Positions 33,838-56,198 of a DNA stretch of 64,000 nucleotides are shown here, one piece after another (within the stretch, counting starts at the first letter, position 1; the number at the start of each line of letters is the position of its first letter). The translations under genes were made by a program, and so were the position numbers. Where the stretch lies: positions 951-64,950 of the forward strand of contig JABCZG010000027.1 of the NCBI GenBank assembly GCA_013289835.1, read 5' to 3'. Below the pieces are notes generated by a model that worked only from the letters and a program-made list of their open reading frames with translations, was not told the origin of the DNA and did not search any database. The stretch comes from Acidobacteriota bacterium. GTDB taxonomy: Bacteria; Acidobacteriota; Terriglobia; Acidiferrales; UBA7541.

Positions 33838-35199
33838 TTAGTTAAGCAGAGTGCGGATTCGGCGAAGAGATGATGCGAATTGATCGGCGTTGTAGGCGGA
33901 GGGATTTTCGAGTTGTTGGAAGAGGGCGTTGATGGCGGCGCGGACTTCGGGGGCGTTGGCGGGCTTGGCGTCTTTGCTGTAGGCGATGTAGAGCGAATCG
34001 ATGGCCATGGTGGCTTGCTCGGCGGCGCGCTCGTCGGCGAGGGAGATATTTTCGGCGTCATCGGAAATCTGCTGGAGCATGTGCAACGCAAGAGTTTGAT
34101 TGTATGGCATGGTGGCCAGGTGTTCGGCGATTCTCTGGACTAGCGGCGCGGCAGCGGAGGCGGCGGAGGCAACGGCGTTGCGATCGGAATTGAGTTTGCT
34201 CATTTCGCCGGAAACAAGTAGCAACTGTCGATCCAATTCTTGCGCGCTTGCGGAATCGATTTGCTTCGCCAGCAAACGAAAGACGGTGTATCTGGAACTG
34301 TTCCACGCCGGATCGCCGGGGCGACGCCCGGCGAAACCATGTTCCTGGCGCCAACTGTCTTTTGCGGGGCCCAGGGAATGGTGGCAGGCGAAACAGGAAA
34401 GTTCGGAATACTCGGGCCACACATCTTTTTTGTCGAAGCGTTCGTTTTTTGCGCGCCAGGTGAGTCTTTCCATTTCTGCGCGCAATTGCACGGCCTGGCC
34501 GGTGCTCCATTCGCGAACGCCAACCCACGCGGCATCTTCGACGGGTTTACCGGGCTCGGATTCGCGCGGGACTTTCCAGTGGCGCGGCATCACGGCGGAA
34601 AACGAATCGAGTTCGAAATAGAGGTCAGGATGGCCAGCCGCGATCATCTCGTGGTCCACAAATTTGTTTTTTGTTCCAAGATGGCATTCGAGGCATTTTT
34701 CGGTGCGATGAATCACGTCGCGCGTGTCCGCCATTCCTAGCGCGACGGATTTTTCATGCGGCCACGAACGCGTGGTGTGTGGACCCAGCCATGCCGAAGC
34801 GGGTCCGTGGCAATTCTCGCAGGAGACGCCCTCGGAGATTTCGAACGCGCGGCCGCGCTGTTCGGGCGGCGGATTCAGTGCGTGACACGCCAGGCACTTT
34901 GGCGATTCTTCGGCCTTCGCGCCGAGTTTCAGAATTCGAGCCATGCGTTCGCCGACGTCTCCGGTCAGCGCCTGGTAGGCGCGGCTGTGCTTGTCCTGGA
35001 TGATCCAAGTGGAATATTCGTTTTGGAAAATCCGACTGCCGGCGATGGGTTTTACGCTGCCGTGGCAACTCGTTGCCGCGCAGGAGCCTGGGCCGATGTA
35101 TTTGATGGGCTCATTCTGGGCAGAAAGCACCGCCGGGATAGCCAGGAACCATGCGCAGAGGACAACGCGAAGGATGCAGAGGTTGGAGAATTTGCGCAT
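33838..35199 (-). CDS. Secreted multiheme c-type cytochrome (4 CxxCH + 1 Cx4CH) with helical C-terminal domain
   Basis: Start at MRKFSNLCILRVVLCAWFLAIPAVLSAQ (signal peptide). Heme motifs CAATSCH, CLACH, CENCH, CLECH and CFACH. The last ~200 aa are heme-free. Confidence 0.8.
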   Translation of the reverse strand: MRKFSNLCILRVVLCAWFLAIPAVLSAQNEPIKYIGPGSCAATSCHGSVKPIAGSRIFQNEYSTWIIQDKHSRAYQALTGDVGERMARILKLGAKAEESPKCLACHALNPPPEQRGRAFEISEGVSCENCHGPASAWLGPHTTRSWPHEKSVALGMADTRDVIHRTEKCLECHLGTKNKFVDHEMIAAGHPDLYFELDSFSAVMPRHWKVPRESEPGKPVEDAAWVGVREWSTGQAVQLRAEMERLTWRAKNERFDKKDVWPEYSELSCFACHHSLGPAKDSWRQEHGFAGRRPGDPAWNSSRYTVFRLLAKQIDSASAQELDRQLLLVSGEMSKLNSDRNAVASAASAAAPLVQRIAEHLATMPYNQTLALHMLQQISDDAENISLADERAAEQATMAIDSLYIAYSKDAKPANAPEVRAAINALFQQLENPSAYNADQFASSLRRIRTLLN

Positions 35200-35414
35200 T
35201 CGGTGTGCCGGCGAATCTGTTTGCTTATATCGTTTGCGACTCAGTGAAGTCAACGGGGCGAGGTGTCTTTTTCGCTGCGCGTCGCGAAAAGCCAAAGGGG
35301 CGCTATTTACAGCGCGGGTTCCTGCCAGTAGTATGCAGGGGATTCAGCACGCCACTTTGCGCCGCGCATCGCAATCGCAGCATCGCCGGCGCTTTTCTCG
35401 CGAGACGGGGCGCC

Positions 35415-37145
35415 GTGATCTTCGACGACCTACGGGCCATTCAGCTTCGCCATGGCTTCCTGCCAAAGGCGGAATTGGAGGGCCTCTCACAACGCACCCA
35501 GACGCCACTCTATCAGCTTCATAGTGTCGCGAGTTTTTATCCCCATTTTCATCTGGTGCCGCCGGCCAAAGCGGAAATTCGCGTGTGCGCGGACATGAGC
35601 TGCCGGTTGAATGGCGCGTGCGAGCTTCGCGCGGATGTGGAGCGGCGATTTGCCGACGCGCGCCCAGAGGATGTGCAGATTCGCGATGTTTCGTGTCTTG
35701 GGCGCTGCGATCACGCGCCTGCTGTATCCATCAACGATGCGATTTTCACGGATGTGAGCGGCGAACACGCCGAGGAGATTGCGCGGCGCGCGATCCGCGG
35801 GGAGGACATTCACGAGCCGCATCCGGAGCAGGCGCGGGTGGAGTGCAAGGCGGATCCTTATGGTGATGGCGCGGCGCAAAACGAACGATATGACGTCGTT
35901 CGAAAGCTTGCGCAATCGCGCGCGTTCGAAAACGTTATTGCACAGCTGAAAGCGGCCGAGCTGCGTGGGATGGGCGGGGCGGGATTTCCTACGAGCATGA
36001 AGTGGGATCTGGTGCGAAAAGAGGCCGACCCGGTCAAATATATTGTGTGCAACGCGGATGAGAGCGAGCCGGGCACGATTAAAGACCGCTTCATCATGAC
36101 GCATCTGCCGCATTTGCTGATCGAAGGGATGATCCTCGCGGGGATGGTCACCGGCGCAAAGCGCGGGATCCTTTACATCCGGCACGAATATCATCTGCAG
36201 GAAGAAATTCTTGGTGAAGAGATTCGACGCTGTTATCGGGCGGGGCTGCTGGGAAAAAGCATTCTTGGAACACCGCTGGCGTTTGATCTGGAAGTTTTTG
36301 TCAGCCCCGGCGGATACATTTGCGGGGAAGAGTCGGCGCTGCTGGAGGCCATCGAAGGGCACCGCGCGGAGCCGCGCAACAAACCTCCTTTTCCGGTGCA
36401 AGCAGGTCTCTGGCAGAAACCGACGGTCATCAACAATGTCGAGACATTTATTAACGTCCCGCAGATTCTGGCGCGGGGAGTGGATTGGTTTGCAGCGCAA
36501 GGCGCAGGGGTGTCGCGCGGGTTGAAATTTGTTGGCGTCAGCGGGCACGTGGCGCGGCCGGGGATTTTCGAAGTGGCCATGGGGACGCCGATGCGCGAGG
36601 TAATTTTCAAACACGCGGGCGGAATTCGCGGCGGCCGCGAATTGAAAGCGTTTGCGCCGTCCGGACCGTCGTCAGGGTATCTTCCTGCTTCGATGGTTGA
36701 TGTGCGTCTGGATTTCAAGGCGCTTGCCGAAGCCGGCTCGATGCTGGGATCCGGAGCGATCGTTGTGTGCGACGACAGTACTTGCATGTTGGACATGGCG
36801 CTGGCTGCGGTGCGCTTTTATCGCAATGAATCGTGCGGCAAATGCGTTCCCTGCCGCGTGGGGTCGCAGAAAATGACGGATATGCTGGTGCGCTGGACGC
36901 AAGGCGGATTGCCCGAATCGCAATATCTGGCGGACCTCGCGCTGCTCGAGGAACTGTCGCAGGCCATGAGTTTAACTTCGATCTGCGGGCTTGGGCAGAT
37001 TGTTCCTGCGCCGATTCAGTCAGTGCTGAAACATTTTCGGGCTGAAATTGACGCGCATGTTTTGAAGGGGCAGTGTCCGAGCGGGATTTGTTTTACGCCT
37101 GCTGCGCGTGCGGGAGAAGCGCAGCGCGTTGGGATTCGACCTTGA
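35415..37145 (+). CDS. Fused NuoE-like/NuoF-like NAD(P)H dehydrogenase flavoprotein
   Basis: NuoE-type 2Fe-2S ligands (CADMSC ... CLGRC). NuoF motifs GMGGAGFPT (FMN), CNADESEPGT (NADH) and ESCGKCVPCRVG (4Fe-4S). GTG 35415 is chosen because the 35151 start would overlap the divergent cytochrome gene. The start is uncertain. Confidence 0.85.
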   Translation: MIFDDLRAIQLRHGFLPKAELEGLSQRTQTPLYQLHSVASFYPHFHLVPPAKAEIRVCADMSCRLNGACELRADVERRFADARPEDVQIRDVSCLGRCDHAPAVSINDAIFTDVSGEHAEEIARRAIRGEDIHEPHPEQARVECKADPYGDGAAQNERYDVVRKLAQSRAFENVIAQLKAAELRGMGGAGFPTSMKWDLVRKEADPVKYIVCNADESEPGTIKDRFIMTHLPHLLIEGMILAGMVTGAKRGILYIRHEYHLQEEILGEEIRRCYRAGLLGKSILGTPLAFDLEVFVSPGGYICGEESALLEAIEGHRAEPRNKPPFPVQAGLWQKPTVINNVETFINVPQILARGVDWFAAQGAGVSRGLKFVGVSGHVARPGIFEVAMGTPMREVIFKHAGGIRGGRELKAFAPSGPSSGYLPASMVDVRLDFKALAEAGSMLGSGAIVVCDDSTCMLDMALAAVRFYRNESCGKCVPCRVGSQKMTDMLVRWTQGGLPESQYLADLALLEELSQAMSLTSICGLGQIVPAPIQSVLKHFRAEIDAHVLKGQCPSGICFTPAARAGEAQRVGIRP

Positions 37146-37146
37146 T

Positions 37147-39318
37147 ATGACGACTGCCGCTACACCTCCGGGAATGGTGGACATCACGCTCGACGGGAAC
37201 GTCGTACGTGTGCCTGCGGGCGTGAGCGTTTTTGACGCGGCGCGCATGAATGGCGTCAACATCCCTACTCTTTGCCATTTGCAGAACCAGACTCCTGTGG
37301 GGGTGTGCCGGCTTTGCGTTGTGGACACGGGCGCGCGCGTTCTCACCGCTTCCTGCGTTCGAACGGTCGAGCCGGGGATGAAGGTGGTCACAAATTCGGA
37401 GAAAGTTCTGAATGCGCGCAAGACGCTGCTTGAGTTGATGATGTCCGATCATCCTTCGCCTTGCGTGCGACAACAGAATTCGGGCGATTGCGAATTGGAA
37501 ATGCATGCGAGGGCGGCTGGGGCTTCTCAAGCGCGATTCGCAAAGCGCACGGTCGCTCGCGGCAAGGATGATTCATCGCTGGCAATCGCTGTGGATCACG
37601 ACGCCTGCATTCTGTGCGACCGGTGCATCCGCGGATGTGATGAGGTAAAAAGCAATTTTGTGCTCGGGCGTATGGGCAAAGGGTACTCCGCAGGAATTGC
37701 ATTCGATCTGAATTCGCCGATGGGGGATTCCACGTGCATTTCTTGCGGCGAGTGCATGGTGTCCTGTCCCACGGGTGCGTTGACGAACAAGAGCGTCGTC
37801 GGCACTGCGATTGCGGCGGGGCCTGATGCGCAGGGCTTCGAGGCGGAAGATCTTCTGCAGATTCCCGTTTTCAAGGGAGTTTCCGGGACATTTCTTGAGC
37901 TCAATCGCGGCGCGATCGTCAAGCGCCGGTTCCGCAAGGGCGATCTCATGTGCCGCGAAGGGGAGTTCGGGTCGACAGCGTTCTACATTCTGGAAGGCAA
38001 GGCCAAAGTATCCATTTCCACGCCCATTGCGCACGTGAAGACGCAGGGTGGGGCCAAGGGATTTTTCAAACGACTTACCAGCACGCTGGTCGCGCGCGAG
38101 GAGGACAAGCGCGAGGGGGAAACGCGGGACAGGACGATTCCGATTGATGCTTCCGTGGATCTTTCGTATGGGAACCCCGTAGCGGAACTTGGGCCCGGCG
38201 ATCTATTTGGCGAAATGACGTGCATGAATTTTTACCCGCGGTCGGCGACGGTGGTTGCGGAATCGGATGTGGTCGCGTTCGAAATGCTGCGGAATGTTCT
38301 GGATATCATGCTGAAGAACAAGACGTTTCGCGCGCAACTGGATCAAACGTACCGGCGGCGGGCTCTGGAAAATCATCTGCGCGGCGTCCCCATGTTCGCA
38401 GACCTCTCGGCTGATTTCATCGAGCACCTGAAGGAGAGTGTGGAGTTGCAGCGATTTGCTCCCGGCCAGACCATCGCGCTGCAGGGCGAGCCGGCGGACT
38501 GTTTCTATCTGGTGCGCATCGGCTTTGTGAAGATTTCGGAAAATTATCCGGGCGGCGAGATGGTGCTCGCGTATTTATCGCGCGGTGATTATTTTGGAGA
38601 GATCGGATTGCTGGGCGGTGGGATTCGAACGGCGACTTGCACGGCGCTGGACCACGTTGAGGTTGTACGGATTTCAGGTGATGATTTCCGCGACATGGTC
38701 GCGCGTTTTCCGAGCGTTCGAACGGGGCTGGAAACCGTGGCGTCGGAGCGGCGCGCGGCGAATCAGCAGCGCATGCAGATGGTTCATAACGTCTCCATCG
38801 ATCAATTTTTGTCACAAGGATTGATGGAAGCGCAGAGCCTGCTGATTCTGGATTTGCAGAATTGCACGCGTTGCGATGCTTGCGTGAATGCCTGCGCGGA
38901 CGCACATGACGGCGTAACGCGGCTGGTGCGCGATGGGTTGCGTTTCGATCAATATCTTGTGGCCACAAGCTGCCGGCAGTGCCGCGATCCGCTGTGCATG
39001 GTGGGCTGCCCGGTTGGCTCGATTCGAAGGCGGAATTCGCTGGAAGTGATTATTGAAGATTGGTGCATCGGGTGCGGGCTGTGCGCGCAGAATTGTCCAT
39101 ACGGAAATATTAATTTGCATCCGTTTGAAGTGATGGTGGACGATCCGGAGCGGGCTGGGCGGAAGAAGGCGGCGATCAAGCAGAAGGCGACGTCGTGCGA
39201 TCTTTGCACGCATTTGAAAGAGCCGAGTTGCGTGTATGCGTGTCCGCATGATGCGGCGCATCGCGTGGATCCCAGGACATTTTTCGCCGAGATGCTTGGG
39301 CAGGGTTCCACGAAATGA
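37147..39318 (+). CDS. FeS protein: NuoG-type N-terminal FeS module + 2 cyclic-nucleotide-binding domains + DmsB/HybA-type 4x[4Fe-4S] module
   Basis: N-terminal 2Fe-2S ferredoxin fold (VDITLDGNVVRVPAG...CHLQ...GVCRLCVV). 4Fe-4S motifs CILCDRCIRGC and CISCGECMVSCP. Two CAP-type cassettes (FGEMTCMNFYPRSATVVA, FGEIGLLGGGIRTATCTA). C-terminal motifs CTRCDACVNAC, CRQCRDPLCMVGCP, CIGCGLCAQNCP and CDLC...CVYACP. No HTH. Confidence 0.8.
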   Translation: MTTAATPPGMVDITLDGNVVRVPAGVSVFDAARMNGVNIPTLCHLQNQTPVGVCRLCVVDTGARVLTASCVRTVEPGMKVVTNSEKVLNARKTLLELMMSDHPSPCVRQQNSGDCELEMHARAAGASQARFAKRTVARGKDDSSLAIAVDHDACILCDRCIRGCDEVKSNFVLGRMGKGYSAGIAFDLNSPMGDSTCISCGECMVSCPTGALTNKSVVGTAIAAGPDAQGFEAEDLLQIPVFKGVSGTFLELNRGAIVKRRFRKGDLMCREGEFGSTAFYILEGKAKVSISTPIAHVKTQGGAKGFFKRLTSTLVAREEDKREGETRDRTIPIDASVDLSYGNPVAELGPGDLFGEMTCMNFYPRSATVVAESDVVAFEMLRNVLDIMLKNKTFRAQLDQTYRRRALENHLRGVPMFADLSADFIEHLKESVELQRFAPGQTIALQGEPADCFYLVRIGFVKISENYPGGEMVLAYLSRGDYFGEIGLLGGGIRTATCTALDHVEVVRISGDDFRDMVARFPSVRTGLETVASERRAANQQRMQMVHNVSIDQFLSQGLMEAQSLLILDLQNCTRCDACVNACADAHDGVTRLVRDGLRFDQYLVATSCRQCRDPLCMVGCPVGSIRRRNSLEVIIEDWCIGCGLCAQNCPYGNINLHPFEVMVDDPERAGRKKAAIKQKATSCDLCTHLKEPSCVYACPHDAAHRVDPRTFFAEMLGQGSTK

Positions 39319-40295
39319 GAATGGACAAGACACAGCGCGGATGGGCCTTGGCGGCGGCCGCAATTCTCATGGTGTCGGCTGTGATCTACGTGCTTTATGC
39401 GCTTGGTTCGACGCAAGGACCGCGCGGTAGTAGCGCGATTGGCCTGACTTTTGGCGTCATCGGTTTCGCGTTTATGATTTTCGCGGCGCTGCTCGGGGCG
39501 CGGAAGCGGGTTCCGACTTGGCGTGTTGGGCGTGCACAGACCTGGATGCGCGGGCATCTTTGGCTCGGTTTTCTGGCGCTGCCGATTATTCTTTTTCATG
39601 GCGGATTTCATTTTGGCGGGACGCTCACGCGAGTTTTGATGTGGCTGCTCATTATCACGGTGTTTAGCGGGGTGTTTGGCGCGGCGCTGCAACATTATAT
39701 TCCGCGGGTGATGACTGCGGAGGTGCCGCTGGAGACGATTTACGATGAGATTGGGCACGTGCGATCGCTGCTTCGCGAAGAAGCCGATCGCGCGGTCGAA
39801 TCCGTGTGCGGTCCGATCGGCCTAGACAAAACTTCCGATGCGGAGGTTCGACGCGCTGGGGGATTCACGGCATTGCGCGCGATTGCCGCGTCTGCCGTAC
39901 CACTAAGGACATCGGCTGCGGTCAGCGCGGGCGCAAGCGCGGCCGTTGCGGCTGCACCGGAGATTATTTTGTTAAGCGAAGAGGAAAGTGCGCCGCTACG
40001 CCGATTCTATTTGCAAGAGATGCGGCCGTTTCTCGAGCATCCGGAGCGGCGCGGGCAACGGCTCGGGGATGAGCAGAAGGCGGCCTGCGCGTTTGCGGGA
40101 TTACAAACTTTGCTGCCTGCTGCGGCGCGCGCGACGCTCGACGATCTTACGGATATTTGCGACGAGGCGCGGCAACTGCAGCGGCAGGCGCGGCTGCATC
40201 ACTGGCTGCATGGGTGGTTGCTGGTGCATATTCCGCTTTCGCTTGCGCTGATTTTGCTCGGCGTGGTTCATGCGGTGATGGCGCTGCGCTACTAA
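39315..40295 (+). CDS. Integral membrane protein, putative diheme cytochrome b
   Basis: Five predicted TM helices. His pairs lie 14 positions apart in two helices (HLWLGFLALPIILFH and HIPLSLALILLGVVH). The start overlaps the upstream stop (ATGA). Heme binding is an inference. Confidence 0.6.
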   Translation: MRMDKTQRGWALAAAAILMVSAVIYVLYALGSTQGPRGSSAIGLTFGVIGFAFMIFAALLGARKRVPTWRVGRAQTWMRGHLWLGFLALPIILFHGGFHFGGTLTRVLMWLLIITVFSGVFGAALQHYIPRVMTAEVPLETIYDEIGHVRSLLREEADRAVESVCGPIGLDKTSDAEVRRAGGFTALRAIAASAVPLRTSAAVSAGASAAVAAAPEIILLSEEESAPLRRFYLQEMRPFLEHPERRGQRLGDEQKAACAFAGLQTLLPAAARATLDDLTDICDEARQLQRQARLHHWLHGWLLVHIPLSLALILLGVVHAVMALRY

Positions 40296-40304
40296 CAGGA
40301 AAAC

Positions 40305-41777
40305 GTGGCACGCACACGCACAACGAAAAAACTGGCGCAGCGGATCGACCTCAATTACTTCAAGAGGCCGACGCCGCTGAAGCGGGCGAAATTCTGGCTC
40401 AGCGTGCTTCTGCCGCTGCTTGCGCTGGTGTGGATTGCGGAGCGGACTGTTTTCAGGGACTCGCGCGTTTACAGCAGCGGACGGCTGTCGGAACCGCATG
40501 CGGTGCTTGAAAAAGAATGCGCGGCGTGTCACGTGCTGCAAGCCGGGGCGTTTTCCGCGAAGGCTGCCGATAACGCTTGCCTCGCGTGTCACGACGGGCC
40601 GATCCATCATGTCAATCAGACAAAATCGCTTGAATGCGCAGCTTGCCACTCGGAACACCGCGGCCGCGTGAACGTTCGCGCGGCAAGCGATCAGAGCTGC
40701 GCGGAATGTCATGGGGACTTGAAAGCGAGCGGCGGAGCGATACATTTCGCGTCGCGCATTCACAGCTTTGAAGATGGACACCCGGAGTTTGCGAGGCTGC
40801 GTGACGGGGCGCGCGATCCGGGGACGATCAAGCTCAATCACGCGATTCACATGAAGGCGATTCGGCGTGGGCCCAATGGGCCGATGGTCAGGCTTGAATG
40901 CCGCAATTGTCACCATGCGACCGCAGTAGATGCGGACTTGACCTACGCTGATCCGAAGTACCGCGCCGCGAGCGTGAGCTACAAAGATAGCGACGAAGTG
41001 CTTACGATTCAGGCGGGAACACTCTCGCCTTCCCATCCAATCAGCGGACGCGAGCGGATGGCGCCGGTGAAATTCGCGAGTGCTTGCGCGGCCTGCCACT
41101 TGCTTACATTCGATAAGCGATTTGACGACGGCGTTCCACACGATAAGCCGGAAATCATATATGCGTTCCTCGTGAAGAAATTCCGCGAGTATATCGCGGC
41201 GCACCCGGCGGAGCTACGCGTGCAACGTGATCCGAGCCGAGACATTACGGGAAAGCCCATGGCGCCGGAGGCTCGCATCCTCACGCCTGCGCAGTGGGTT
41301 GCGGAGCGCACCGGCGAAGCCGAGGAACTTTTGTGGCGCAAGACCTGCAACCAATGCCACAAGTTGACTCCTTCTGCAAAAGGTTTGCCAGGAAGGATTG
41401 AGCAATCGGTCCGAGAAAGTGACGCTGGCAAAGGCAATGACAACTCCGTTGAACTGCCATACGTCGTGGCGGCGAACACCACACTGCAGTGGATGCCGCA
41501 TGCGAGATTCGATCATTCAGCGCACACGGGATTTACCTGCGTGAGTTGCCATGCGAAAGCGCTTACGAGCACGGAGGCTAGCGATATTTTGTTGCCGGGG
41601 ATTGCGACTTGCCAGAAGTGCCATGCGCCGGGGGCGGAACATGCGGAGTCGCGGTGTTTCGAATGCCATACGTATCATGATTGGTCGAAGCGCAAGGAAG
41701 TGACGCCGGCGTTTACGCTGCCCGCGCTGCGAACCGGACAGGTTCGCGTTGAAACTCATTCGAACGATGGACGATAA
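40305..41777 (+). CDS. Membrane-anchored decaheme c-type cytochrome
   Basis: N-terminal signal anchor (FWLSVLLPLLALVWIA). Ten CxxCH motifs: CAACH, CLACH, CAACH, CAECH, CRNCH, CAACH, CNQCH, CVSCH, CQKCH, CFECH. GTG start. Confidence 0.85.
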   Translation: MARTRTTKKLAQRIDLNYFKRPTPLKRAKFWLSVLLPLLALVWIAERTVFRDSRVYSSGRLSEPHAVLEKECAACHVLQAGAFSAKAADNACLACHDGPIHHVNQTKSLECAACHSEHRGRVNVRAASDQSCAECHGDLKASGGAIHFASRIHSFEDGHPEFARLRDGARDPGTIKLNHAIHMKAIRRGPNGPMVRLECRNCHHATAVDADLTYADPKYRAASVSYKDSDEVLTIQAGTLSPSHPISGRERMAPVKFASACAACHLLTFDKRFDDGVPHDKPEIIYAFLVKKFREYIAAHPAELRVQRDPSRDITGKPMAPEARILTPAQWVAERTGEAEELLWRKTCNQCHKLTPSAKGLPGRIEQSVRESDAGKGNDNSVELPYVVAANTTLQWMPHARFDHSAHTGFTCVSCHAKALTSTEASDILLPGIATCQKCHAPGAEHAESRCFECHTYHDWSKRKEVTPAFTLPALRTGQVRVETHSNDGR

Positions 41778-41808
41778 TGCGGCGGAAGAAGAGACGCCAG
41801 GGCCAAAG

Positions 41809-42075
41809 ATGAAACGACATCTTCTGACGATACTAATGAGTTTGGTGGCCGCGGTAATCAGCGGCGGGATTTTCGTTATTGCATTGTTTCATCAATTTGC
41901 GCTGGTGGAAGTGGCGGCGAGCATTCTCACGGGCCTGCAGGTGCTTTTCCTCAGTTCTTCGATTGGCGATCTTCTGGATGAAAAGAAAGAGCCGAATCGT
42001 GCGAGGAATTCCGCGGTGGTGTTGGTGACGGTGTTTTTGGTGGCGTTTTATTCCTTCACGCGGTATTTCCACTAG
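41809..42075 (+). CDS. Small hypothetical membrane protein
   Basis: MKRHLLTILMSLVAAVISGGIFVIALF plus two more hydrophobic helices. Alternative starts at 41749 (TTG) or 41767 (ATG) would overlap the cytochrome stop. Confidence 0.4.
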   Translation: MKRHLLTILMSLVAAVISGGIFVIALFHQFALVEVAASILTGLQVLFLSSSIGDLLDEKKEPNRARNSAVVLVTVFLVAFYSFTRYFH

Positions 42076-42098: not shown

Positions 42099-42131
42099 AA
42101 AAAGACAAAACCTCACCCCTGAAGGGGTGAG
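42099..42131 (-). terminator. Rho-independent terminator of the phosphofructokinase gene
   Basis: Read on the minus strand: CTCACCCC, loop TTCA, GGGGTGAG, followed by GTTTTGTCTTTTT. Confidence 0.7.
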
Positions 42132-45200: not shown

Positions 45201-45266
45201 GAAAGCATGGGAACGATGAGGCCACCGAGAAACTACTTCATGAAAACATTCCGGCGGGAGGCCGGG

Positions 45267-46223: not shown

Positions 46224-46241
46224 TTTTTCGAACGGAGTGAT

Positions 46242-50099: not shown

Positions 50100-53000
50100 T
50101 CAGTAAAAAGAGTCCAACCACTCTCGGGCGCGAGTGAAGAAGGACGAGTACGAGGGCAAGGATGTCGATGAGGACGAAGTGGAGCGAGGCTGCTCCACAG
50201 CGTCGTCTGTGACGATGTAGGGTTCGCCCGTGCTCGGATGAATGTAGAGTGAGCGCATTTCCGCGCGGTTGAGCGGGCGAGCGCCGCGCCGACCAAACAC
50301 GGCGAGCTGGTTCCCGGATTCATCCACCGCCCTGTCACGATCAATACCTTTGGAAATGGCCAGCGCGGGGCCGCGCGTGTGGGCCGTGGCAATGAGTTTA
50401 GGCGTGGGTCGCGGGCTAAATCCCGAAAAATGCGCGGAGTCATCCCACGGAGAGAGAATTTGCAGGACGCGAAGCCCGTTCTTCCCGTCGGCAACGAAGG
50501 CGAACGCGCTGGCTGCAACCATTCCAATCTTGACGTCGTTCACGTCGTTGAGCTGGCCTTCTGCGCTAAAGATTTGATCCAGCTTAGGCGCGTCGGGTTT
50601 TTCAACGTCAACAATCGCAATTCCCTGCTTCCCTGCCGAAACGTACGCGTACGTGCGAGCGACGTAAACGTTTCGAGCATCTTCGACAGGAACGAGCGCA
50701 TTTGCGACGGGCTTCGGCTGGGAAAGATCGGTAACGTCGAGAACCTTTAGGCCGTCGCGATCCACGACAAATGCGTAGCGGAATTGCACGGCGATGCCAC
50801 GAGGATCGTTGAGCGCGGGCGCACCGATGTTGGCCGTCACGCGCGGAGCAAGCGGATTATCGAGATCTACCACAACAAGCGCCTTGTCCGTGAGGACGTA
50901 GGCGTATGTCCCGACGATGGAGATGCGGCGCGCGCCTGTGAGCACGCCGCCGGGATTGAAAGCTAAAGCGCGCTTCAAGAAATTGTTGGCAGGATTGCCG
51001 TCGAGTAGCGTGCCTACGCCGGGACTTTTCGATTTGAGACTCGGGTCGCCGATGATCACGAGTCCTTCTTCTTTGTCCGCGACGTAGAGGAAGCCATACA
51101 GCAGATGGATGGCTTGCTCCTCGTTCTCCGGCAATGGCTGCCGCAGTGGATCGACACCGAGCGTCGTCGGAGAAGCAACGGCTAGAGCGTTTTTCGTCGG
51201 AACGTAAAAACGCTGGCCGATGGGCGAAACCGGCGCGGTGGACATTTTCTCTGAGAACCCTTTGTTATCAATGTTGGCGATGTCAAAGACGCGAAGACCG
51301 CCCGGTCCCGTCGCGGCATAGGCATATTCGCCGCGAGCCTGGATATCAAGGACGTTGCCCGTGTGTTCTGCGGCGGTGCTTAGTTCGCGGTGATGCTCCA
51401 GGAATTTCTTGTAATTGTCCGGATAGGCGACGCGCTGTAGATCGCTGCCGTAGATGGCTTCCGGCTCATCGTGTTCCGCGACGGCGACCGCTTCGAAACC
51501 TTTATTGCCCGTGGCTACGTAAACGTAGCGGCCCATGAAATTCATGAAGTTGGTGCCCTGCAACAGCAGTTGCGCCATCCACGCGTTATTGTCATTCTGC
51601 GCGGAGACGTGGCAATCGCTGCACTGCTTCGTTTCTTTGGCGCGCACCGTATGTGGCACGAACGTGGAAAACGCCTGGCCGGAAAAACCGGGCGTGGAAA
51701 TGGTTTGCTGCGTGTAGTAAAGCCACTCGCGATTGGCATTTTGCGAACTCACCAAGACCGCGCAAGACGATCGCGCGGGAGCGACGCGGTGGCCGGTGAC
51801 CGTGCCGTCCACGCCCAGCATATAGATGTCATCGCGCAGAACCTGAAAGTTGTAGCTGGTGTAATTTCTCGTGAGCAAGCCTTCGTTGTGCAGCATCGGC
51901 TTACGCGCATTTGCAGTCATCTGTAAATGGCAGCCGAAACAGGTGGGCGTCCACGACGTGTGGCACGAATAGCAAGTCATACTGCTATTCGCATGGGCGA
52001 GGGTTGCGTCATCGCTGGGCATTTGCGAGGGAACGACACCGTTTTTGTTCAGCAGTTTCGCGCGCATCGACTTCATGCTGAAGTGCACGTTGCCGGGAGT
52101 AATCGTGTCCAGCGTCTGAACGATTTCCCATTCCTTATTTTCCTCCGACATCGAACGCTGAATCACTTTGTCGCCGCGCCACTCGAATCGCCGCAAACCC
52201 CACGGCGTGCGCAGCGTGTCCAAATGTCGCCCGCCTTCCGGCGCTGCGGGCCCTGACGTGATCAGCGCCGCTTTCTTTCGAATCGTGCCGTGGCAGTCAA
52301 TGCAATCAATTTCCACTGCGGCTCGCGGCTCGCCGTAGATTTTTCCGTTGCCGTGATTGTCCTGTGCGAAATGGCAATCGTTGCACTGCATCCCTTTTTC
52401 AAGATGGATGTCGGCCAGATGGACGGCCTTCCCGAAGCGGTCTGGATCATCGAACGCGATTTTCCCGCCGTCTTTATCGAGCCAGTTCCCTTTGCGATCG
52501 TGATTGAAAACGGCGCGGAACACCCAGCCATGACCATGGAAGTCCGCGAACTGTGTAGCCTTCAATTGTTTGTTGAATTCCGCGCTGCCAACATTTTCCA
52601 GAAACTTTTCATCGCCCCACAATCCGCGGACAGCTGCTCCTTCGGGATTACGCACAAACGATTGGTAGCGCTGCTCTTCAGTGGGATTGCGCTGCTCTTT
52701 CGGATACATTTTGTCGCCGTCAATTTCGTTGTCCCACCATGTGAGTCCGAAATACGTTGTGACCATATTCGTTCCGGGGTGAATGTGGCAAATCATGCAT
52801 TGGCTCGACGGAATGGAACGCGTGAACGTGTGCCGGATGGGGTGGCCGGATTCATTTTTCCGAATTGTGGGATCGGACGAGGCACTGAAGCCGGAGTGCC
52901 CAAATCCCGCGTACGCGCCGGAGTGCGCCGGATCGCGGTCGTTTGCGTAAATCACGTGGCATGCGGTGCAGCCGCTTGCGCGGTAGTCTCCAGGATGATC

Positions 53001-53945
53001 GTCGGTGCCGGGCAGAGAAAGAATCGGATCGAGCAAACGTGTTTTCTGCAGGCCGAGAAAAACGGGATCGGTGCGAAGCTCCGTGCCGAACCCGCGGTCG
53101 CTGAGTTTGTCATCGGGTTTCCCCGGATCCTCTTCGCGGGTGGGATTGCCGATTTCCGCTTTCTTGCGCCCGCCCCGCTCAAAAACCCGCAAGACATTCC
53201 CGGGCTGCGAAGTTTCCCAGCGAAAAAGAGGATCGAGTTCCGGAAGGACTCCCTTGGCGCGCGTCTCCTCTGGAGTGGGACTCGGAAACGTTTTGATGGA
53301 TTTCGGCTTTCCATCGCGGTCGTAGCTTTCGCCGAAACGTGCATTTTTTGTCGGATAGCCGCCATTGTTGTAAAGCGCGGCGCCCCACAGCAATCCGGCG
53401 TGCGTCATCATGCTGGTAGACACAGCGCGGGTTTCGGTGGCGTGACAGCCCAATGTGCCGCACGTCTCCGGAGCCACACGCAGATCACCGGGGTTGACGA
53501 ACTTGATGTACTCCGCGGATTCCTTCAGCCACTTGGTGTAGGTGCGCTCGGGAAGCGCGGAGCGATTTCGGAAGGAAGGATCACGCGGCTGGACGTGCGC
53601 CTTTTCTTTCGCGGAATTGTATTCGGCAGAATTCGGTGCGGTACCCGGCGCAAGGGAAATGGAGACGTTGCCACCGTGGCAATCCGTGCAACCGAGGCGA
53701 ACGGTCTTCGTGGGATGCATCGTCGGCTCATCGGTCGAGGTGTGGCAGGAAATGCAGCCAGCGGATTTGCGGTCGGCTTCTTCCTGGGATTGGCCGCGGA
53801 AAAAGTTTGGCGATGCGTCTCGCGATGGATGAGCGCCGGAAGCGGTCGGAGCGGAGCGAAGAGCGAATAATAAAGATAACGCGGAGACGCCGAGTGCGCT
53901 GAGAACTCGCAGAGGAGAGGGAACGCGTAGGCGTTTGTTGGTCAT
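50100..53945 (-). CDS. Large secreted multiheme cytochrome c fused to an LVIVD-repeat beta-propeller region
   Basis: Signal peptide. Nine CxxCH motifs (CISCH, CTDCH, CTACH, CMICH, CNDCH, CIDCH, CYSCH, CFGCH, CSDCH) plus one Cx4CH (CGTLGCH) in the first ~780 aa. The last ~450 aa carry six LVIVD-type repeats (GLRVFDI, GLVIIGD, ALVVVDL, GLKVLDV, GIAIVDV, GLRVLQI). Confidence 0.85.
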
Positions 53946-53957
53946 GATGCGCGCATC

Positions 53958-56198
53958 TCAGAACGTAAGCTTTACCGAGCCGAAAAGCGAGAACAGCGTG
54001 CGGCTCGTATAAATGTCTATGAAACCCTGACCGGGCTGAAGGGCGGAAGCGCCGCCGGTGAGGACGACGTTTTCCGAGAGCGGCGGGCGGTATTCGACGC
54101 CGACGCCGAAATCTTCGCCAATCGTGTGGTGAATCGGAGACTGAAAAAGAATGAATTCCAACGGCTCGGTGCGTTCGAAGCGGAGATAGTTAAAATTCGC
54201 AAAGCCTTTCAGCTTGGGCGTGATATCAAAATCGGCGCCGGCATTCGCGATAAAGATGCCGGGGTTGACGAAATTGGCCTGGCCTTCTTCTTTGCTGGAG
54301 CGCAGAGATGGAATCAGGCTACCGGACGAGGTGAGCAGAATGCCGGAACCGAGGAGCCGAATCGCTTCCCGGTTCCAAAAACTGAACAGACCGCCAGCAA
54401 AATTGGGAAGATCATCGATGGCGTCGAAGCCGCGTGCACGGCCATCGCGAGGATTGGCGTCGCCGGAAGTGTAGAACGTCGAAACGCGGTAGCGGATCCA
54501 GTCCTTATCGTAGGAGAGTTCCACTGCGGCCATCTGCGCGTTGATGGTGACGGGCCTTCCCGCGATGGGATTGAACGTGTCTTCTCCCACGGCTTGATAA
54601 AAAGCGTGGGTGAGATTGAGGCGGCGAATGTGGCCGCTGCCCAGCCAGCCGAAATAGCCGACGCGGATGCCATGAAGAATCGGGCCGGCACCCGGATTCT
54701 GATTGATCACGTTGCCGACGGGCGCAGGGCGGACCAGGAAACCGTTGTCGTCATAGTGCAGGCTGGGATCGTCTTTGTTCCACGCGCCGACGAATTCCGC
54801 CGTGTAGCCGGGGAAAAAGAAATCCTGCAAGTACACGTTGCCGAGGACCACCTGCTGATGGCGGCGGTCGAAGGTGTTGAGGCCGCTGTTGGTGTTTTTC
54901 TCGAGAAGATGAAAATAGGCGACGTTGTATTCGATGCGATCGGAATGGAGATCGCCGAAGATTCGCAACGCAGGCTGCTCGTCCACGAAAAGAAAGCCGC
55001 GGAAATCGGCGTTGAATTGCTGGATGCCCGCGCGCGCGGAAATGAAATCATAGTTGGGGCCAAGATCGTGGAGTTTCACTTCGACGAAAGCTTCCTGCAG
55101 GCCGAGGTGATCGTCAAAGCGATTGGTTCCACTTCGAGGGCTGGGGCCTACGATGCCCAGTTCTCGCACATCCAAATCGTTCAGGCTGATCTCGGGCGTG
55201 ATTCGAATGCGCCAGTCCACAGGCTTGAAGGAAGCATCGCCATGAAATAAATCAAAACTGAAGCGCAGCGTTTGATCGAAGAACGCTTGCTCGCCGCGCC
55301 CGAAGAATCCCGAACTGCCCGGGCGCTCCGCGCTGACGTTGCTGGGGGAAGGGACGCGGCGGCCGTCAAAAAAAGTTTCGGAGGAAGCGGTGATGTTCAG
55401 AAAGGTTTGCTGGCCGAGAAATGCCGGCCAGATCGGCTCATCGCCCTTGAAGCGATTGCGGTTGAAAGGATCGTACCAGTGGGGCTTGGTATAGATGTAT
55501 TCGCCTTTTTGCGAATAGCGGCGATAGTCGGGTTGCTCGAGAGCCCAGCGATTGGGAACGGTGTTGTAGATGTCGGCGACCGGAGGCAGCGCGTCCGGCG
55601 AAATATTTTCAATGTAGCTGGGATCGGAGTCGAGACGATGGCGAAACTCGCGATAGGTGCCGAAGGAAGGTTGCCCTTCGGCGGAAAGTGCGGGACCTAG
55701 CTCGGGGAGACGCGGGAGGCGGGAACGCGCTTCCATGGCTGCGGCGGTTACGAGAGAGATTTCCAGAGTCAGTACTTCGTTGGGCTGAAGAGCGACATCG
55801 GAAAGAACGAAAGGCGCGTAGTCCTTGGCTTCGACGCGAAGTTCGTAATGGCCTGGTGGCAAGGGGAACAACCGAAAAACGCCCTCCGCCGAGGCAGTGC
55901 CGGAAAAGAGCCGGCCGGACTGCAGATTGCGCACCGTAAGCGCGGCTCCGGGGACGGGCAGCGCGATGTTGGAAAAGCCTGCATCGCGTACGATGCCATC
56001 GAGCGCGGCCGTGTTTTGCGCCTGCTGGCGAGGAATGCGCGTGGGGGAACCTTGTTCGTGGGATTGCGCTGCGGGGCTCTGCGCTGGCGTGGATGTCTGC
56101 TGCCGCGGAGTTGCAGCGCCGGGCGGGGAAGAAAGGAACGAAAAACAGCAAGCCGCGCAGAACGCGCGTCGCACTCGCCGCGGGGAGAAGAAGTTCAT
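53958..56198 (-). CDS. Outer-membrane beta-barrel protein with N-terminal CarboxypepD_reg-like domain
   Basis: Signal peptide. A carboxypeptidase-regulatory-like fold (LDGIVRD...GVFRLFPLPPGHYELRVEAKDYAP), then ~580 aa of alternating beta-strand pattern ending in the aromatic terminus ...GSVKLTF. No TonB plug motifs noticed. Confidence 0.65.
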   Translation of the reverse strand: MNFFSPRRVRRAFCAACCFSFLSSPPGAATPRQQTSTPAQSPAAQSHEQGSPTRIPRQQAQNTAALDGIVRDAGFSNIALPVPGAALTVRNLQSGRLFSGTASAEGVFRLFPLPPGHYELRVEAKDYAPFVLSDVALQPNEVLTLEISLVTAAAMEARSRLPRLPELGPALSAEGQPSFGTYREFRHRLDSDPSYIENISPDALPPVADIYNTVPNRWALEQPDYRRYSQKGEYIYTKPHWYDPFNRNRFKGDEPIWPAFLGQQTFLNITASSETFFDGRRVPSPSNVSAERPGSSGFFGRGEQAFFDQTLRFSFDLFHGDASFKPVDWRIRITPEISLNDLDVRELGIVGPSPRSGTNRFDDHLGLQEAFVEVKLHDLGPNYDFISARAGIQQFNADFRGFLFVDEQPALRIFGDLHSDRIEYNVAYFHLLEKNTNSGLNTFDRRHQQVVLGNVYLQDFFFPGYTAEFVGAWNKDDPSLHYDDNGFLVRPAPVGNVINQNPGAGPILHGIRVGYFGWLGSGHIRRLNLTHAFYQAVGEDTFNPIAGRPVTINAQMAAVELSYDKDWIRYRVSTFYTSGDANPRDGRARGFDAIDDLPNFAGGLFSFWNREAIRLLGSGILLTSSGSLIPSLRSSKEEGQANFVNPGIFIANAGADFDITPKLKGFANFNYLRFERTEPLEFILFQSPIHHTIGEDFGVGVEYRPPLSENVVLTGGASALQPGQGFIDIYTSRTLFSLFGSVKLTF

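What the first reader, a model, noticed from the sequence alone, without database searches (positions are those of the whole stretch)
33838..42075. Candidate NAD(P)H-to-periplasm electron conduit: NuoEF-like flavoprotein, FeS/cNMP protein, putative diheme-b membrane protein and multiheme cytochromes
Five + strand genes are tightly packed (35415-42075): a 1-nt gap, a 4-nt ATGA overlap, then a 9-nt gap. A secreted cytochrome gene (33838-35199) diverges from a shared ~215-bp control region. The predicted parts are: (1) a cytoplasmic NAD(P)H-oxidising FMN/FeS head (NuoE+NuoF fusion); (2) a 724-aa FeS wire ending in a DmsB/HybA-like 4x[4Fe-4S] module; (3) a 5-TM protein with bis-His-like pairs; (4) a membrane-anchored decaheme c. 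The logic resembles Hmc/Tmc/Qrc-type transmembrane redox complexes. The differences are a built-in NAD(P)H dehydrogenase head and no recognisable quinone-site subunit (no NuoH- or NrfD-like protein). From memory, not from a search, I know of no characterised complex with this composition. It could drive or reverse electron flow between the NAD(P)H pool and periplasmic or extracellular acceptors without quinones.
Basis: partly seen in the sequence, partly recalled or inferred. Interest (0 to 1): 0.78.

Follow-up and report, generated by a model that had tools for sequence, protein, structure and literature searches.

The report
NADH-fed transmembrane cytochrome electron conduit
This soil acidobacterial gene cluster most likely builds a wire that carries electrons from NADH inside the cell, through iron-sulfur clusters and a new two-heme membrane protein, to multiheme cytochromes outside the inner membrane; it is a variant of a cluster that has been named twice (PCC4, ptd) but never tested.

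Summary

- **Conservation.** NuoEF, FeS-cNMP, the 5-TM protein and the decaheme are collinear in 67 of 67 eligible Acidobacteriota loci. The same set recurs, in at least three other gene orders, in Planctomycetota-type contigs.
- **The 5-TM protein.** It matches no Pfam or NCBIfam model and no PDB sequence or fold. It carries invariant WX3HX13H motifs on TM3 and TM5 and SGXXG on TM4. This is the signature published for the inner-membrane protein of "PCC4" clusters (He et al. 2017).
- **Prior art.** A 2024 preprint calls a matching cluster "ptd". No experiment was found for either PCC4 or ptd, and the published guess is a quinone-linked role in Fe(II) uptake.
- **New evidence here.** The same cNMP–4x[4Fe-4S] / diheme-b / decaheme core is joined to different NAD(P)H flavin modules. 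It has NuoEF plus a HoxU-like module here, and a fused FAD Pyr_redox domain in Sphingobium. This supports NAD(P)H coupling.
- **Missed parts.** A 1281-aa LVIVD multiheme protein and a barrel-like outer-membrane protein, 8-12 kb away, co-occur across three phyla. They probably belong to the system.
- **Still unproven.** Quinone independence, direction of electron flow and the substrate.

Verdict: a new variant of a described but uncharacterised kind.

The parts
33838..35199 (-). cytA: a secreted c554-like cytochrome with 4 CXXCH and 1 CX4CH, plus a heme-free helical C-terminal half. It is the 'tetraheme' of PCC4/ptd-type clusters.
   Evidence: Pfam Cytochrome_C554, E 3.7e-11. Motifs and signal peptide. 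A homologue lies divergent and adjacent in 58 of 69 Acidobacteriota loci and is present in 66 of 69. It is present in 17 of 22 long Planctomycetota-type loci. The Sphingobium homologue is 27% identical, E 3e-42, with 4 CXXCH.
35200..35414 (.). Divergent intergenic region between cytA and the NuoEF operon. Its length is uncertain because the NuoEF start is uncertain.
   Evidence: One sigma-70-like match at 35306-35334 on the + strand, which is not above the shuffle expectation.
35415..37145 (+). NuoE-NuoF fusion: the NADH/FMN site, N3-type [4Fe-4S] and N1a-type [2Fe-2S]. It has no extra ferredoxin domains, so it is not the bifurcating HydB type.
   Evidence: Pfam 2Fe-2S_thioredx 7e-24, Complex1_51K 1e-42, SLBB, NADH_4Fe-4S 3e-25. 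TIGR01959 scores 459 bits, below the 558.65 cut-off. Motifs GMGGAGFPT and ADESEPGT, and Cys 58/63/94/98 and 474/477/480/524.
37147..37809 (+). FeS-cNMP protein, N-terminal HoxU/NuoG-N/HydA-N-like module: [2Fe-2S] plus 2x[4Fe-4S]. The His-ligated cluster site is degenerate.
   Evidence: NCBIfam HoxU 4.6e-48 and [FeFe]-hydrogenase A6 4.8e-59, both below cut-off. PDB hits 7q4v and 6tg9 over residues 10-220. The Cys of these three clusters are 100% conserved in 28 sequences, but C106 and C115 only 25%.
37864..38736 (+). Two cyclic-nucleotide-binding domains, at about aa 240-400 and 410-530, lying between the input and output FeS modules.
   Evidence: Pfam cNMP_binding 1.7e-37. Both phosphate-binding cassettes keep FGE-x8-R-[ST]-A. 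C359 is invariant.
38824..39276 (+). C-terminal HydN/DmsB-like module with four [4Fe-4S] motifs (16 Cys). It is cytoplasmic, with no Tat signal.
   Evidence: Motifs at 573, 609, 640 and 684. NCBIfam HydN 1.7e-15 and DmsB 5.8e-13. Cys conserved at 89-100%. PF13247 gives a weak hit and a clear one in the Sphingobium homologue.
39315..40295 (+). Inner-membrane protein with 5 TM helices and a helical cytoplasmic domain of about 170 aa between TM4 and TM5. It is a predicted diheme cytochrome b of the PCC3/PCC4 'IMP' type.
   Evidence: Invariant W77xxxH81x13H95 (TM3), S118GxxG122 (TM4) and W301xxxH305x13H319 (TM5) in 39 sequences that are 35-53% identical. No Pfam, NCBIfam or PDB hit. AF2 pLDDT 79. 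No fold match. Sub-threshold DUF4405 in 40 of 58 members and Ni_hydr_CYTB in 20 of 58. The family has 2449 cluster representatives at 50% identity.
40305..41777 (+). Membrane-anchored decaheme cytochrome c. The N-terminus is cytoplasmic and the heme domain periplasmic.
   Evidence: 10 CXXCH and a TM at about 28-50. Pfam Cytochrome_C7 and Cytochrom_c3_2. It follows the IMP in 59 of 62 Planctomycetota-type loci and in all Acidobacteriota loci. The Sphingobium homologue has 10 CXXCH.
41809..42075 (+). Small 3-TM ORF. It is probably a real gene but not a conserved member of the cluster.
   Evidence: Homologues lie 0.1-6 kb away or are absent in related loci. No family hit.
50100..53945 (-). Secreted 1281-aa multiheme protein (9 CXXCH plus 1 CX4CH) with C-terminal LVIVD beta-propeller repeats. 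It is a likely distal redox partner or terminal enzyme.
   Evidence: Pfam LVIVD 4.6e-24. Motifs. Homologues lie near the cluster in 33 Acidobacteriota loci and 10 Planctomycetota-type loci, and are adjacent in L108, L161, L163 and L166. It is 47% identical over 1293 aligned positions to a Sphingobium protein next to the same cluster.
53958..56198 (-). 746-aa protein with a signal-like N-terminus, a CarboxypepD_reg domain and a C-terminal ...VKLTF. It is a candidate outer-membrane barrel paired with the LVIVD cytochrome.
   Evidence: Pfam CarboxypepD_reg 6.6e-13. Sequence. The same upstream position recurs in L108 and in Sphingobium, where it is 38% identical over 550 aligned positions, E 1e-113. 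The barrel fold was not tested.

Best explanation
The cluster encodes a multi-subunit transmembrane electron conduit fed by cytoplasmic NADH.

**Proposed path**
1. NuoEF oxidises NADH at FMN.
2. Electrons pass through N3 into the HoxU-like [2Fe-2S]/2x[4Fe-4S] module of the 723-aa protein.
3. They then cross, or are gated by, its two cyclic-nucleotide-binding domains to reach the C-terminal four-cluster ferredoxin module.
4. That module docks on the cytoplasmic helical domain of the 5-TM protein.
5. Two b-hemes carry the electrons across the membrane: H81/H305 on the cytoplasmic side and H95/H319 on the periplasmic side.
6. The electrons reach the anchored decaheme, then the soluble c554-like cytochrome.
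7. They probably end at the LVIVD multiheme protein and its outer-membrane partner.

**Energetics.** The net effect is regulated export of reducing equivalents from NAD(P)H to a periplasmic or extracellular acceptor. No proton-pumping subunit is present, so the role is more likely NAD+ regeneration or supply of reductant than primary energy conservation.

**Shown**
- The domains and cofactor motifs.
- The opposed topology.
- The invariant bis-His pairs.
- Gene linkage across phyla.
- Replacement of the flavin module.

**Inferred**
- Physical complex formation.
- Direct FeS-to-heme-b transfer.
- Outward direction.
- cNMP gating.
- The identity of the acceptor.
For: **Cofactors and topology**
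- Domains and cofactor motifs.
- The FeS proteins lack export signals. The c-type cytochromes have a signal peptide or signal anchor.
- In the IMP, the loops at 1-10 and 63-80 are strongly basic and the large domain follows TM4, so it is N-in. TM3 and TM5 both run in-to-out with their His pairs in register.

**Gene linkage**
- The ATGA overlap of FeS-cNMP with the IMP and the 1- and 9-nt gaps fit co-translation.
- The core is collinear in 67 of 67 Acidobacteriota loci.
- In Planctomycetota-type loci the IMP is followed by a decaheme in 59 of 62. NuoE/F plus FeS-cNMP lie within 10 kb in 19 of 22, in at least three orders and orientations, with NuoE and NuoF sometimes unfused.
- All FeS ligands of the input and output modules are conserved at 38-61% protein identity.

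**Swapped flavin module**
- Sphingobium herbicidovorans has a Pyr_redox (FAD/NAD) domain fused to 2xCNB and the 4Fe-4S module, followed by an IMP homologue (H102/H116 and H274/H288) and a decaheme. A cytA homologue, a barrel-like protein and an LVIVD cytochrome lie alongside.
- The ptd description lists an FAD/NAD(P) oxidoreductase with the same cNMP-FeS, FRD-like TM protein and decaheme.

**Thermodynamics (established knowledge)**
- NADH at -320 mV lies well below typical c-heme potentials.
- The membrane potential favours outward movement of electrons.
Against: - There is no experiment on any member of this family.
- Three of 22 long Planctomycetota-type loci, and also L084, have only the IMP-decaheme pair. 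The pair may therefore work without the NADH module, for example with quinol.
- Diheme-b proteins of the Ni_hydr_CYTB type, to which the IMP is weakly similar, usually have a quinone site.
- He et al. 2017 proposed quinone coupling and inward flow from Fe(II).
- The His-ligated cluster of HoxU/NuoG is missing, so the intra-protein FeS path is uncertain.
- The roughly 320 aa of CNB domains between the FeS modules might break the chain rather than gate it.
- The LVIVD and outer-membrane genes are 8-12 kb away in this window, separated by unrelated genes.
Confidence: 0.58

Rival explanations
1. Quinone-linked reading, as in the published PCC4 model. The 5-TM diheme-b protein is a quinol:cytochrome c (or cytochrome c:quinone) oxidoreductase like CbcL/CbcBA or FdnI/HyaC. 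The NuoEF/FeS-cNMP proteins either reduce quinone at this protein, acting as a non-pumping NADH:quinone reductase, or are an accessory branch.
For: - Sub-threshold similarity to Ni_hydr_CYTB, collinear with the profile.
- Some loci hold only the IMP-decaheme pair.
- He et al. 2017 propose exactly this.
Against: - The conserved cytoplasmic domain of about 170 aa, and the tight and often overlapping linkage to a cytoplasmic four-cluster ferredoxin module, are not features of quinone-only b subunits.
- Three different NAD(P)H flavin modules are recruited to the same core.
- No NrfD- or NuoH-like subunit is present.
- None of this excludes a quinone site.
Confidence: 0.22
2. Inward flow. The system takes electrons from an extracellular or periplasmic donor (Fe(II), Mn(II), reduced humics, or a low-potential donor) through the cytochromes and b-hemes, and reduces NAD(P)+ in the cytoplasm.
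For: - PCC4 was found through Fe(II) oxidisers.
- ptd occurs in nitrite oxidisers.
- NuoEF-type modules are reversible in other enzymes (established knowledge).
Against: - Moving electrons inward works against the membrane potential, and Fe(II)- or nitrite-level donors lie far above NAD+. No energy-coupling subunit is present to drive this (inference).
- The hosts here, Acidoferrales, are reported as Fe(III)-reduction candidates and heterotrophs.
Confidence: 0.1
3. There is no common machine. The NuoEF/FeS-cNMP pair is a soluble cNMP-regulated diaphorase or redox sensor, and the IMP and cytochromes are a separate system that happens to lie next to it.
For: - Two cNMP domains suggest signalling.
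- Signalling genes occur next to some clusters.
Against: - Linkage survives rearrangement across Acidobacteriota, Planctomycetota-type and Alphaproteobacteria loci.
- The start and stop codons overlap.
- The output FeS module has no other evident acceptor encoded nearby.
Confidence: 0.06

Closest known systems
'PCC4' gene cluster and its inner-membrane protein (He, Barco, Emerson, Roden 2017, PMC5566968), and the 'ptdABCDEFG' operon (bioRxiv 10.1101/2023.11.21.568154)
   Same: - A 5-TM IMP with WX3HX13H on TM3 and TM5 and SGXXG on TM4.
- An adjacent decaheme.
- A tetraheme c554-like cytochrome.
- An Fe-S gene upstream of the IMP, which carries cNMP domains in ptd.
- An extra NAD(P)-type redox protein.
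- A porin-like partner.
- Presence in Planctomycetes.
- Function unknown in both papers.
   Different: - The input here is a NuoE-NuoF fusion plus a HoxU-like module fused onto the cNMP-FeS protein.
- No separate pentaheme gene lies in the window.
- The distal partners are an LVIVD decaheme and a CarboxypepD_reg protein 8-12 kb away.
- The host is a soil acidobacterium, whereas the described clusters are mostly marine.
- Sequence homology to the published proteins could not be tested, because only accession numbers were available.
Tmc/Hmc (and Dsr, Qrc) transmembrane redox complexes of sulfate reducers
   Same: The logic is the same: periplasmic multiheme c, an integral b-type cytochrome and a cytoplasmic FeS protein, with electrons crossing the membrane.
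   Different: - The parts are not homologous. No NarI/HdrE-like b subunit, HdrD-like CCG protein or NrfD-like subunit was found.
- Those complexes have no NADH/flavin head and no cNMP domains.
NOX/FRE ferric-reductase-domain enzymes, and the Fre-MsrQ system
   Same: - NAD(P)H passes to a flavin and then to two bis-His b-hemes stacked across the membrane, reaching an acceptor outside.
- The HX13H pairs sit on the third and fifth helices.
   Different: - The flavin module is a separate FMN/FeS complex of the NuoEF type with a long FeS relay.
- The acceptor is a decaheme cytochrome.
- Pfam Ferric_reduct does not match the window protein.
Complex I N-module / HoxEFU diaphorase
   Same: NuoE, NuoF and a NuoG-N/HoxU-like [2Fe-2S] plus [4Fe-4S] module.
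   Different: - Scores fall below the equivalog cut-offs.
- The His-ligated cluster site is lost.
- No membrane arm, hydrogenase or formate dehydrogenase partner was seen among the cluster genes or the flanking genes scanned.
- It is fused to cNMP and four-cluster modules.
Geobacter CbcL / CbcBA inner-membrane cytochromes
   Same: A diheme-b membrane protein is paired with a periplasmic multiheme c at the inner membrane of metal reducers. This comparison is from memory and was not tested here.
   Different: - Those are quinol oxidases of the HydC/FdnI family with no cytoplasmic FeS/NADH partner.
- The IMP here reaches Ni_hydr_CYTB only below threshold.

Membership tests
PCC4 / ptd-type cluster | IMP with five TM helices, WX3HX13H on TM3 and TM5, and SGXXG on TM4 | tested here: met
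   W77-H81-H95, S118-G119-G122 and W301-H305-H319 are all invariant in alignment A1. TM segments. Feature definition.
PCC4 / ptd-type cluster | Decaheme cytochrome c next to the IMP | tested here: met
   10 CXXCH, with a 9-nt gap after the IMP.
PCC4 / ptd-type cluster | Tetraheme periplasmic cytochrome in the cluster | tested here: met
   cytA has 4 CXXCH (plus one CX4CH), a signal peptide and the Cytochrome_C554 domain.
PCC4 / ptd-type cluster | Separate pentaheme cytochrome | tested here: not met
   Only three multiheme genes lie in the 64-kb window. A 5-CXXCH paralogue of cytA is present in many Planctomycetota-type loci.
PCC4 / ptd-type cluster | Porin gene in the cluster | tested here: inconclusive
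   The candidate at 53958-56198 (-) has a signal-like N-terminus and a C-terminal ...VKLTF, and is conserved next to the LVIVD gene. It lies 12 kb away, and the barrel fold was not tested.
PCC4 / ptd-type cluster | Fe-S gene (with cNMP domains in ptd) directly upstream of the IMP | tested here: met
   The FeS-cNMP stop overlaps the IMP start. Domains.
PCC4 / ptd-type cluster | Sequence homology to the published PCC4/Ptd proteins | not testable with these tools
   Only accession numbers are given in Table S7.
Hmc/Tmc/Qrc/Dsr complexes | NarI/HdrE-like cytochrome b, HdrD-like CCG protein or NrfD-like subunit | tested here: not met
   No such Pfam or NCBIfam hit in any of the six proteins. The only related hits are weak: QrcA at 2.9e-5 and DsrO at 9e-10, both far below cut-off.
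Complex I N-module / HoxEFU | NuoE, NuoF and NuoG-N/HoxU with the His-ligated [4Fe-4S], plus a catalytic or membrane partner | tested here: not met
   The NuoE and NuoF domains are present but below equivalog cut-offs. The His/Cys site is incomplete and 25% conserved. No partner subunits were found among the cluster genes or the flanking genes scanned.
Ferric reductase domain (FRD/NOX) superfamily | Two HX13H pairs on the third and fifth helices, and a match to PF01794 | tested here: inconclusive
   The His pattern is met. PF01794 does not hit the window protein and hits one homologue at E 0.0079.
Prokaryotic cytochrome b561 / Ni_hydr_CYTB | Match to PF01292 above the gathering score | tested here: not met
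   The best score is 24.2 bits against a cut-off of 30.1. Twenty of 58 members match below threshold, and none for the window protein.
MtrCAB-type porin-cytochrome | MtrA/DmsE-family decaheme (TIGR03508) | tested here: not met
   No hit for the decaheme. cytA gives only E 0.0022 at 17.5 bits against a cut-off of 192.

The most novel reading that the evidence does not exclude
A quinone-independent NADH:multiheme-cytochrome transmembrane oxidoreductase that is gated by a cyclic nucleotide. It is built on a diheme-b family with no Pfam model and no solved relative. It is widespread in dominant soil Acidobacteriota and in Planctomycetota. It feeds a conserved LVIVD multiheme enzyme at the cell envelope. 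If so, cells could switch direct export of NADH electrons on and off without using the quinone pool.
Probability: 0.35. Interest if true: 0.85.

Novelty: new variant of a known kind. Interest (0 to 1): 0.62.

Why it matters
**Abundance.** Acidoferrales are among the most abundant soil bacteria and have been proposed as major Fe(III) reducers. How they move electrons out of the cell is not known.

**Size of the family.** The IMP family has 2449 cluster representatives at 50% identity and relatives in at least 594 species genomes. Even so, it has no Pfam model, no structure and no experiment.

**What a direct NAD(P)H link would mean.**
- The cluster would define a route for extracellular or periplasmic electron transfer that bypasses quinones and is under second-messenger control.
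- It would revise the published quinone/Fe(II)-uptake model for PCC4.
- It would give the 'completely unknown' ptd operon a testable function.

**A tractable system.** Sphingobium herbicidovorans MH is a cultured host that carries the full set of genes on its 959-kb plasmid pMSHV.

Tried and rejected
**Searches and models that gave nothing**
- The search for related loci with the diverse alignment A1 failed because it had no conserved stretch. I redid it with A2.
- The genome scan returned only close relatives at 64-86% identity. Distant context had to come from a second protein search plus contig look-ups and from the metagenome scan.
- The AF2 model of the decaheme was unusable at pLDDT 39.7, so no fold search was run on it.
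- The Foldseek search of the IMP model against PDB gave nothing below E 0.15.
- Sequence and profile searches of the IMP against PDB sequences gave nothing.
- tblastn of the IMP against plasmids found nothing. The FeS-cNMP query did find the Sphingobium cluster.
- The listing of cluster members gave almost no taxon names.

**Ideas considered and dropped**
- The small ORF 41809-42075 is not conserved in place, so it is not a subunit.
- A dedicated nucleotide cyclase is not part of the system. Cyclase genes lie near the cluster in only 4 of about 165 loci.
- The NuoF is not of the electron-bifurcating HydB type, because it lacks the extra ferredoxin domains.
- Membership of Hmc/Tmc/Qrc is rejected.

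**Literature**
- Searches with NuoEF, cNMP, multiheme, LVIVD and Acidoferrum terms found nothing specific.
- Two later searches found the ptd preprint and He et al. 2017.

Full report
**Observation**

- **cytA (33838-35199, -)** is a 453-aa protein with a cleavable signal peptide, four CXXCH and one CX4CH. It has a Cytochrome_C554 domain.
- **The + strand genes** are NuoE+NuoF (35415-37145), a 723-aa FeS/cNMP protein (37147-39318), a 326-aa membrane protein (39315-40295) and a decaheme (40305-41777). They are separated by 1, -4 and 9 nt.
- **The small 3-TM ORF** follows after 31 nt.
- **The NuoEF start is uncertain.** The frame is open from 35151, and JGI calls a 90%-identical homologue 23 residues longer.
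- **The flanks** are a P450 gene and a phosphofructokinase gene.
- **The host** is an acidobacterium of the Ca. Acidoferrum / Acidoferrales group.

**Anatomy of the cytoplasmic proteins**

NuoEF has the full set of N-module features:
- the N1a-type Cys (58/63/94/98);
- the FMN loop GMGGAGFPT;
- the NADH motif ADESEPGT;
- the N3 Cys (474/477/480/524).

It has no extra ferredoxin domains.

The 723-aa protein has four parts.
1. Residues 1-220 resemble HoxU, the NuoG N-terminus and the HydA N-terminus. They carry a [2Fe-2S] and two CX2CX2CX3C motifs.
2. The His-ligated cluster site is incomplete (H102, C106, C115). It is conserved in only 25% of 28 homologues.
3. Two cyclic-nucleotide-binding domains follow. 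Both keep the canonical FGE-x8-R-[ST]-A cassette, so by established knowledge of CNB domains they should bind cAMP or cGMP.
4. Residues 560-710 carry 16 Cys in four [4Fe-4S] motifs of HydN/DmsB type.

Neither protein has an export signal.

**The membrane protein**

- It matches no Pfam or NCBIfam model.
- It has no PDB relative by sequence or profile.
- Its AlphaFold model (pLDDT 79) has no fold match below E 0.15.
- The family is nevertheless large: 2449 cluster representatives at 50% identity.

An alignment of 39 members that are 35-53% identical shows these invariant residues:
- W77, H81 and H95 on TM3;
- S118, G119 and G122 on TM4;
- W301, H305 and H319 on TM5.

The charge distribution puts the N-terminus, the very basic 63-80 loop and the helical domain of about 170 aa between TM4 and TM5 in the cytoplasm. 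TM3 and TM5 therefore both run in-to-out with their His pairs in register. That is the geometry for two stacked b-hemes, as in cytochrome b and the ferric-reductase domain.

Sub-threshold Pfam matches point to the same superfamily. DUF4405 matches 40 of 58 members and Ni_hydr_CYTB matches 20 of 58, collinear with the profile.

**Conservation**

*Acidobacteriota.*
- At least 594 species-representative genomes encode a relative of the membrane protein.
- In the 80 best loci, NuoEF, FeS-cNMP, the IMP and the decaheme are collinear in 67 of 67 loci long enough to judge.
- cytA is present in 66 of 69 loci and is divergent and adjacent in 58.
- The small ORF is not conserved in place.

*Planctomycetota-type clade.* This is a distant clade of the IMP, 34-46% identical. 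Its named members are Gemmataceae, Isosphaeraceae and Planctomycetaceae.
- The IMP is followed by a decaheme in 59 of 62 loci. The other three are ORF-calling or divergence problems.
- NuoE/F plus FeS-cNMP lie within 10 kb in 19 of 22 long loci.
- At least three gene orders and orientations occur, sometimes with NuoE and NuoF unfused.
- One or two c554-like cytochromes, with 4 and 5 CXXCH, are usually present.

Linkage that survives rearrangement argues for a functional unit.

- The 1281-aa secreted protein at 50100-53945 (-) has 9 CXXCH, one CX4CH and LVIVD propeller repeats.
- Just upstream of it lies a 746-aa protein (53958-56198) with a CarboxypepD_reg domain and a C-terminal ...VKLTF.
- Homologues of the LVIVD protein lie near the cluster in 33 Acidobacteriota loci and 10 Planctomycetota-type loci. 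In several they are directly adjacent.

**The Sphingobium version**

The 959-kb plasmid pMSHV of Sphingobium herbicidovorans MH carries the whole set:
- a single protein with Pyr_redox (FAD/NAD), two CNB domains and the four-cluster module;
- an IMP homologue (27% identical, with H102/H116 and H274/H288);
- a decaheme with a cytoplasmic FHA domain;
- a cytA homologue (27%);
- a homologue of the 746-aa protein (38%);
- an LVIVD cytochrome (47% identical over 1293 aligned positions).

The LVIVD protein is the best conserved part across phyla. That suggests it is an enzyme rather than a simple wire.

**Prior art**

He et al. 2017 (PMC5566968) described 'PCC4'.
- Subgroup II has an Fe-S gene upstream of the IMP. 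It occurs in Proteobacteria and Planctomycetes.
- They defined the IMP by five TM helices, SGXXG on TM4 and WX3HX13H on TM3 and TM5. The window protein has exactly these motifs.
- They proposed a quinone-active cytochrome b serving uptake of electrons from Fe(II).

A 2024 preprint (10.1101/2023.11.21.568154) named 'ptdABCDEFG'.
- PtdA is a pentaheme.
- PtdB is a porin.
- PtdC is an FAD/NAD(P) oxidoreductase.
- PtdD is a tetraheme.
- PtdE is a cNMP protein with 4Fe-4S clusters.
- PtdF is a ferric-reductase-like TM protein.
- PtdG is a decaheme.
- Its function is stated to be completely unknown.

As far as I read, neither paper reports an experiment on the cluster. Neither mentions a NuoEF/HoxU head, the LVIVD protein or soil Acidoferrales. 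I could not align the published proteins, because only accession numbers were available. Membership therefore rests on motifs and composition.

**Mechanism**

The best-supported reading is an electron conduit with these steps:
1. NADH to FMN.
2. N3 to the HoxU-like clusters.
3. The C-terminal four-cluster module.
4. Two b-hemes.
5. The anchored decaheme.
6. The c554-like cytochrome.
7. Probably the LVIVD protein and its outer-membrane partner.

The strongest new argument is modular substitution. Two non-homologous NAD(P)H flavin modules were seen here, and a third is known by description. All are attached to the same CNB/four-cluster/IMP/decaheme core. In both fused forms the CNB domains sit between the flavin input and the FeS output, which suits a gating role.

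Outward flow is favoured by the redox potentials and by the membrane potential. No pumping subunit is present. The likely role is therefore regulated disposal or delivery of reducing power, not primary energy conservation. All of this is inference.

Quinone independence is not shown. Some loci have only the IMP-decaheme pair, and related b-cytochromes carry quinone sites.

**Verdict**

It is not a wholly new kind of system. It is a new variant of the PCC4/ptd cluster type, which has been described but never characterised. This variant has an NADH head, a soil acidobacterial host and LVIVD partners. Interest is moderately high because the family is abundant and untested, and because the data here point to a different coupling (NAD(P)H) than the published model.

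Noticed in passing
window 50100-56198 (-): A secreted 1281-aa LVIVD-repeat multiheme protein and an upstream 746-aa CarboxypepD_reg protein ending in ...VKLTF co-occur with the cluster in Acidobacteriota, Planctomycetota-type and Sphingobium loci. The LVIVD protein is the best conserved component across phyla, at 47-55% identity.
   Followed up: partly
L134:497-1792; L165:700-2537; L085:4461-6206; L167:11162-12961: Signalling genes or domains sit next to some clusters. L134 has a cNMP-binding Ser/Thr kinase. L165 and L085 have GAF and class III cyclase genes. The Sphingobium decaheme has a cytoplasmic FHA domain at its N-terminus. Cyclases lie nearby in only 4 of about 165 loci, so they are not core parts.
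   Followed up: partly
window 37147-39318 (aa 102-115, 269, 359): The His-ligated [4Fe-4S] site typical of HoxU/NuoG is degenerate: C106 and C115 are conserved in only 25% of homologues. By contrast, C359 inside the first cNMP phosphate-binding cassette is invariant and C269 is 89% conserved. The role of these Cys is unknown.
   Followed up: no
window 39315-40295 (aa 165, 282): Two Cys in the cytoplasmic helical domain of the membrane protein (C165, C282) are at least 90% conserved across Acidobacteriota and Planctomycetota-type members. They could form a metal, disulfide or docking site.
   Followed up: no
L024, L025, L041, L043, L049, L052, L059, L062, L064, L081: Contigs that are 67-73% identical to the Acidoferrum protein carry MAG labels such as Verrucomicrobiia, Methylomirabilota, Eisenbacteria, Betaproteobacteria and Limnocylindrales. 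Mis-binning is more likely than true taxonomic spread.
   Followed up: no
L044 and L051: Two separate contigs of one MAG (DATBBY01, SMAG_U5771) each carry a copy of the cluster at 66-67% identity to the window protein. The genome may hold paralogous copies, or the bin may be mixed.
   Followed up: no
window 32371-33765 (-): A cytochrome P450 gene lies just beyond cytA. It keeps that position in many close relatives, sometimes with a methyltransferase between them, but not in distant lineages.
   Followed up: partly
window 43665-47201 (+): A trio of genes: circularly permuted ATP-grasp, Alpha-E and transglutaminase-like. It looks like an operon unrelated to the finding.
   Followed up: no
window 42112-42131: A strong GC-rich hairpin with a T-tail lies on the - strand just downstream of the phosphofructokinase gene, between the convergent gene ends. 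It may terminate transcription from both sides.
   Followed up: no
window 21163-24564 (+): A 1133-aa tricorn-protease-like protein with PD40 propeller, Tricorn C1/PDZ and Peptidase_S41 domains.
   Followed up: no
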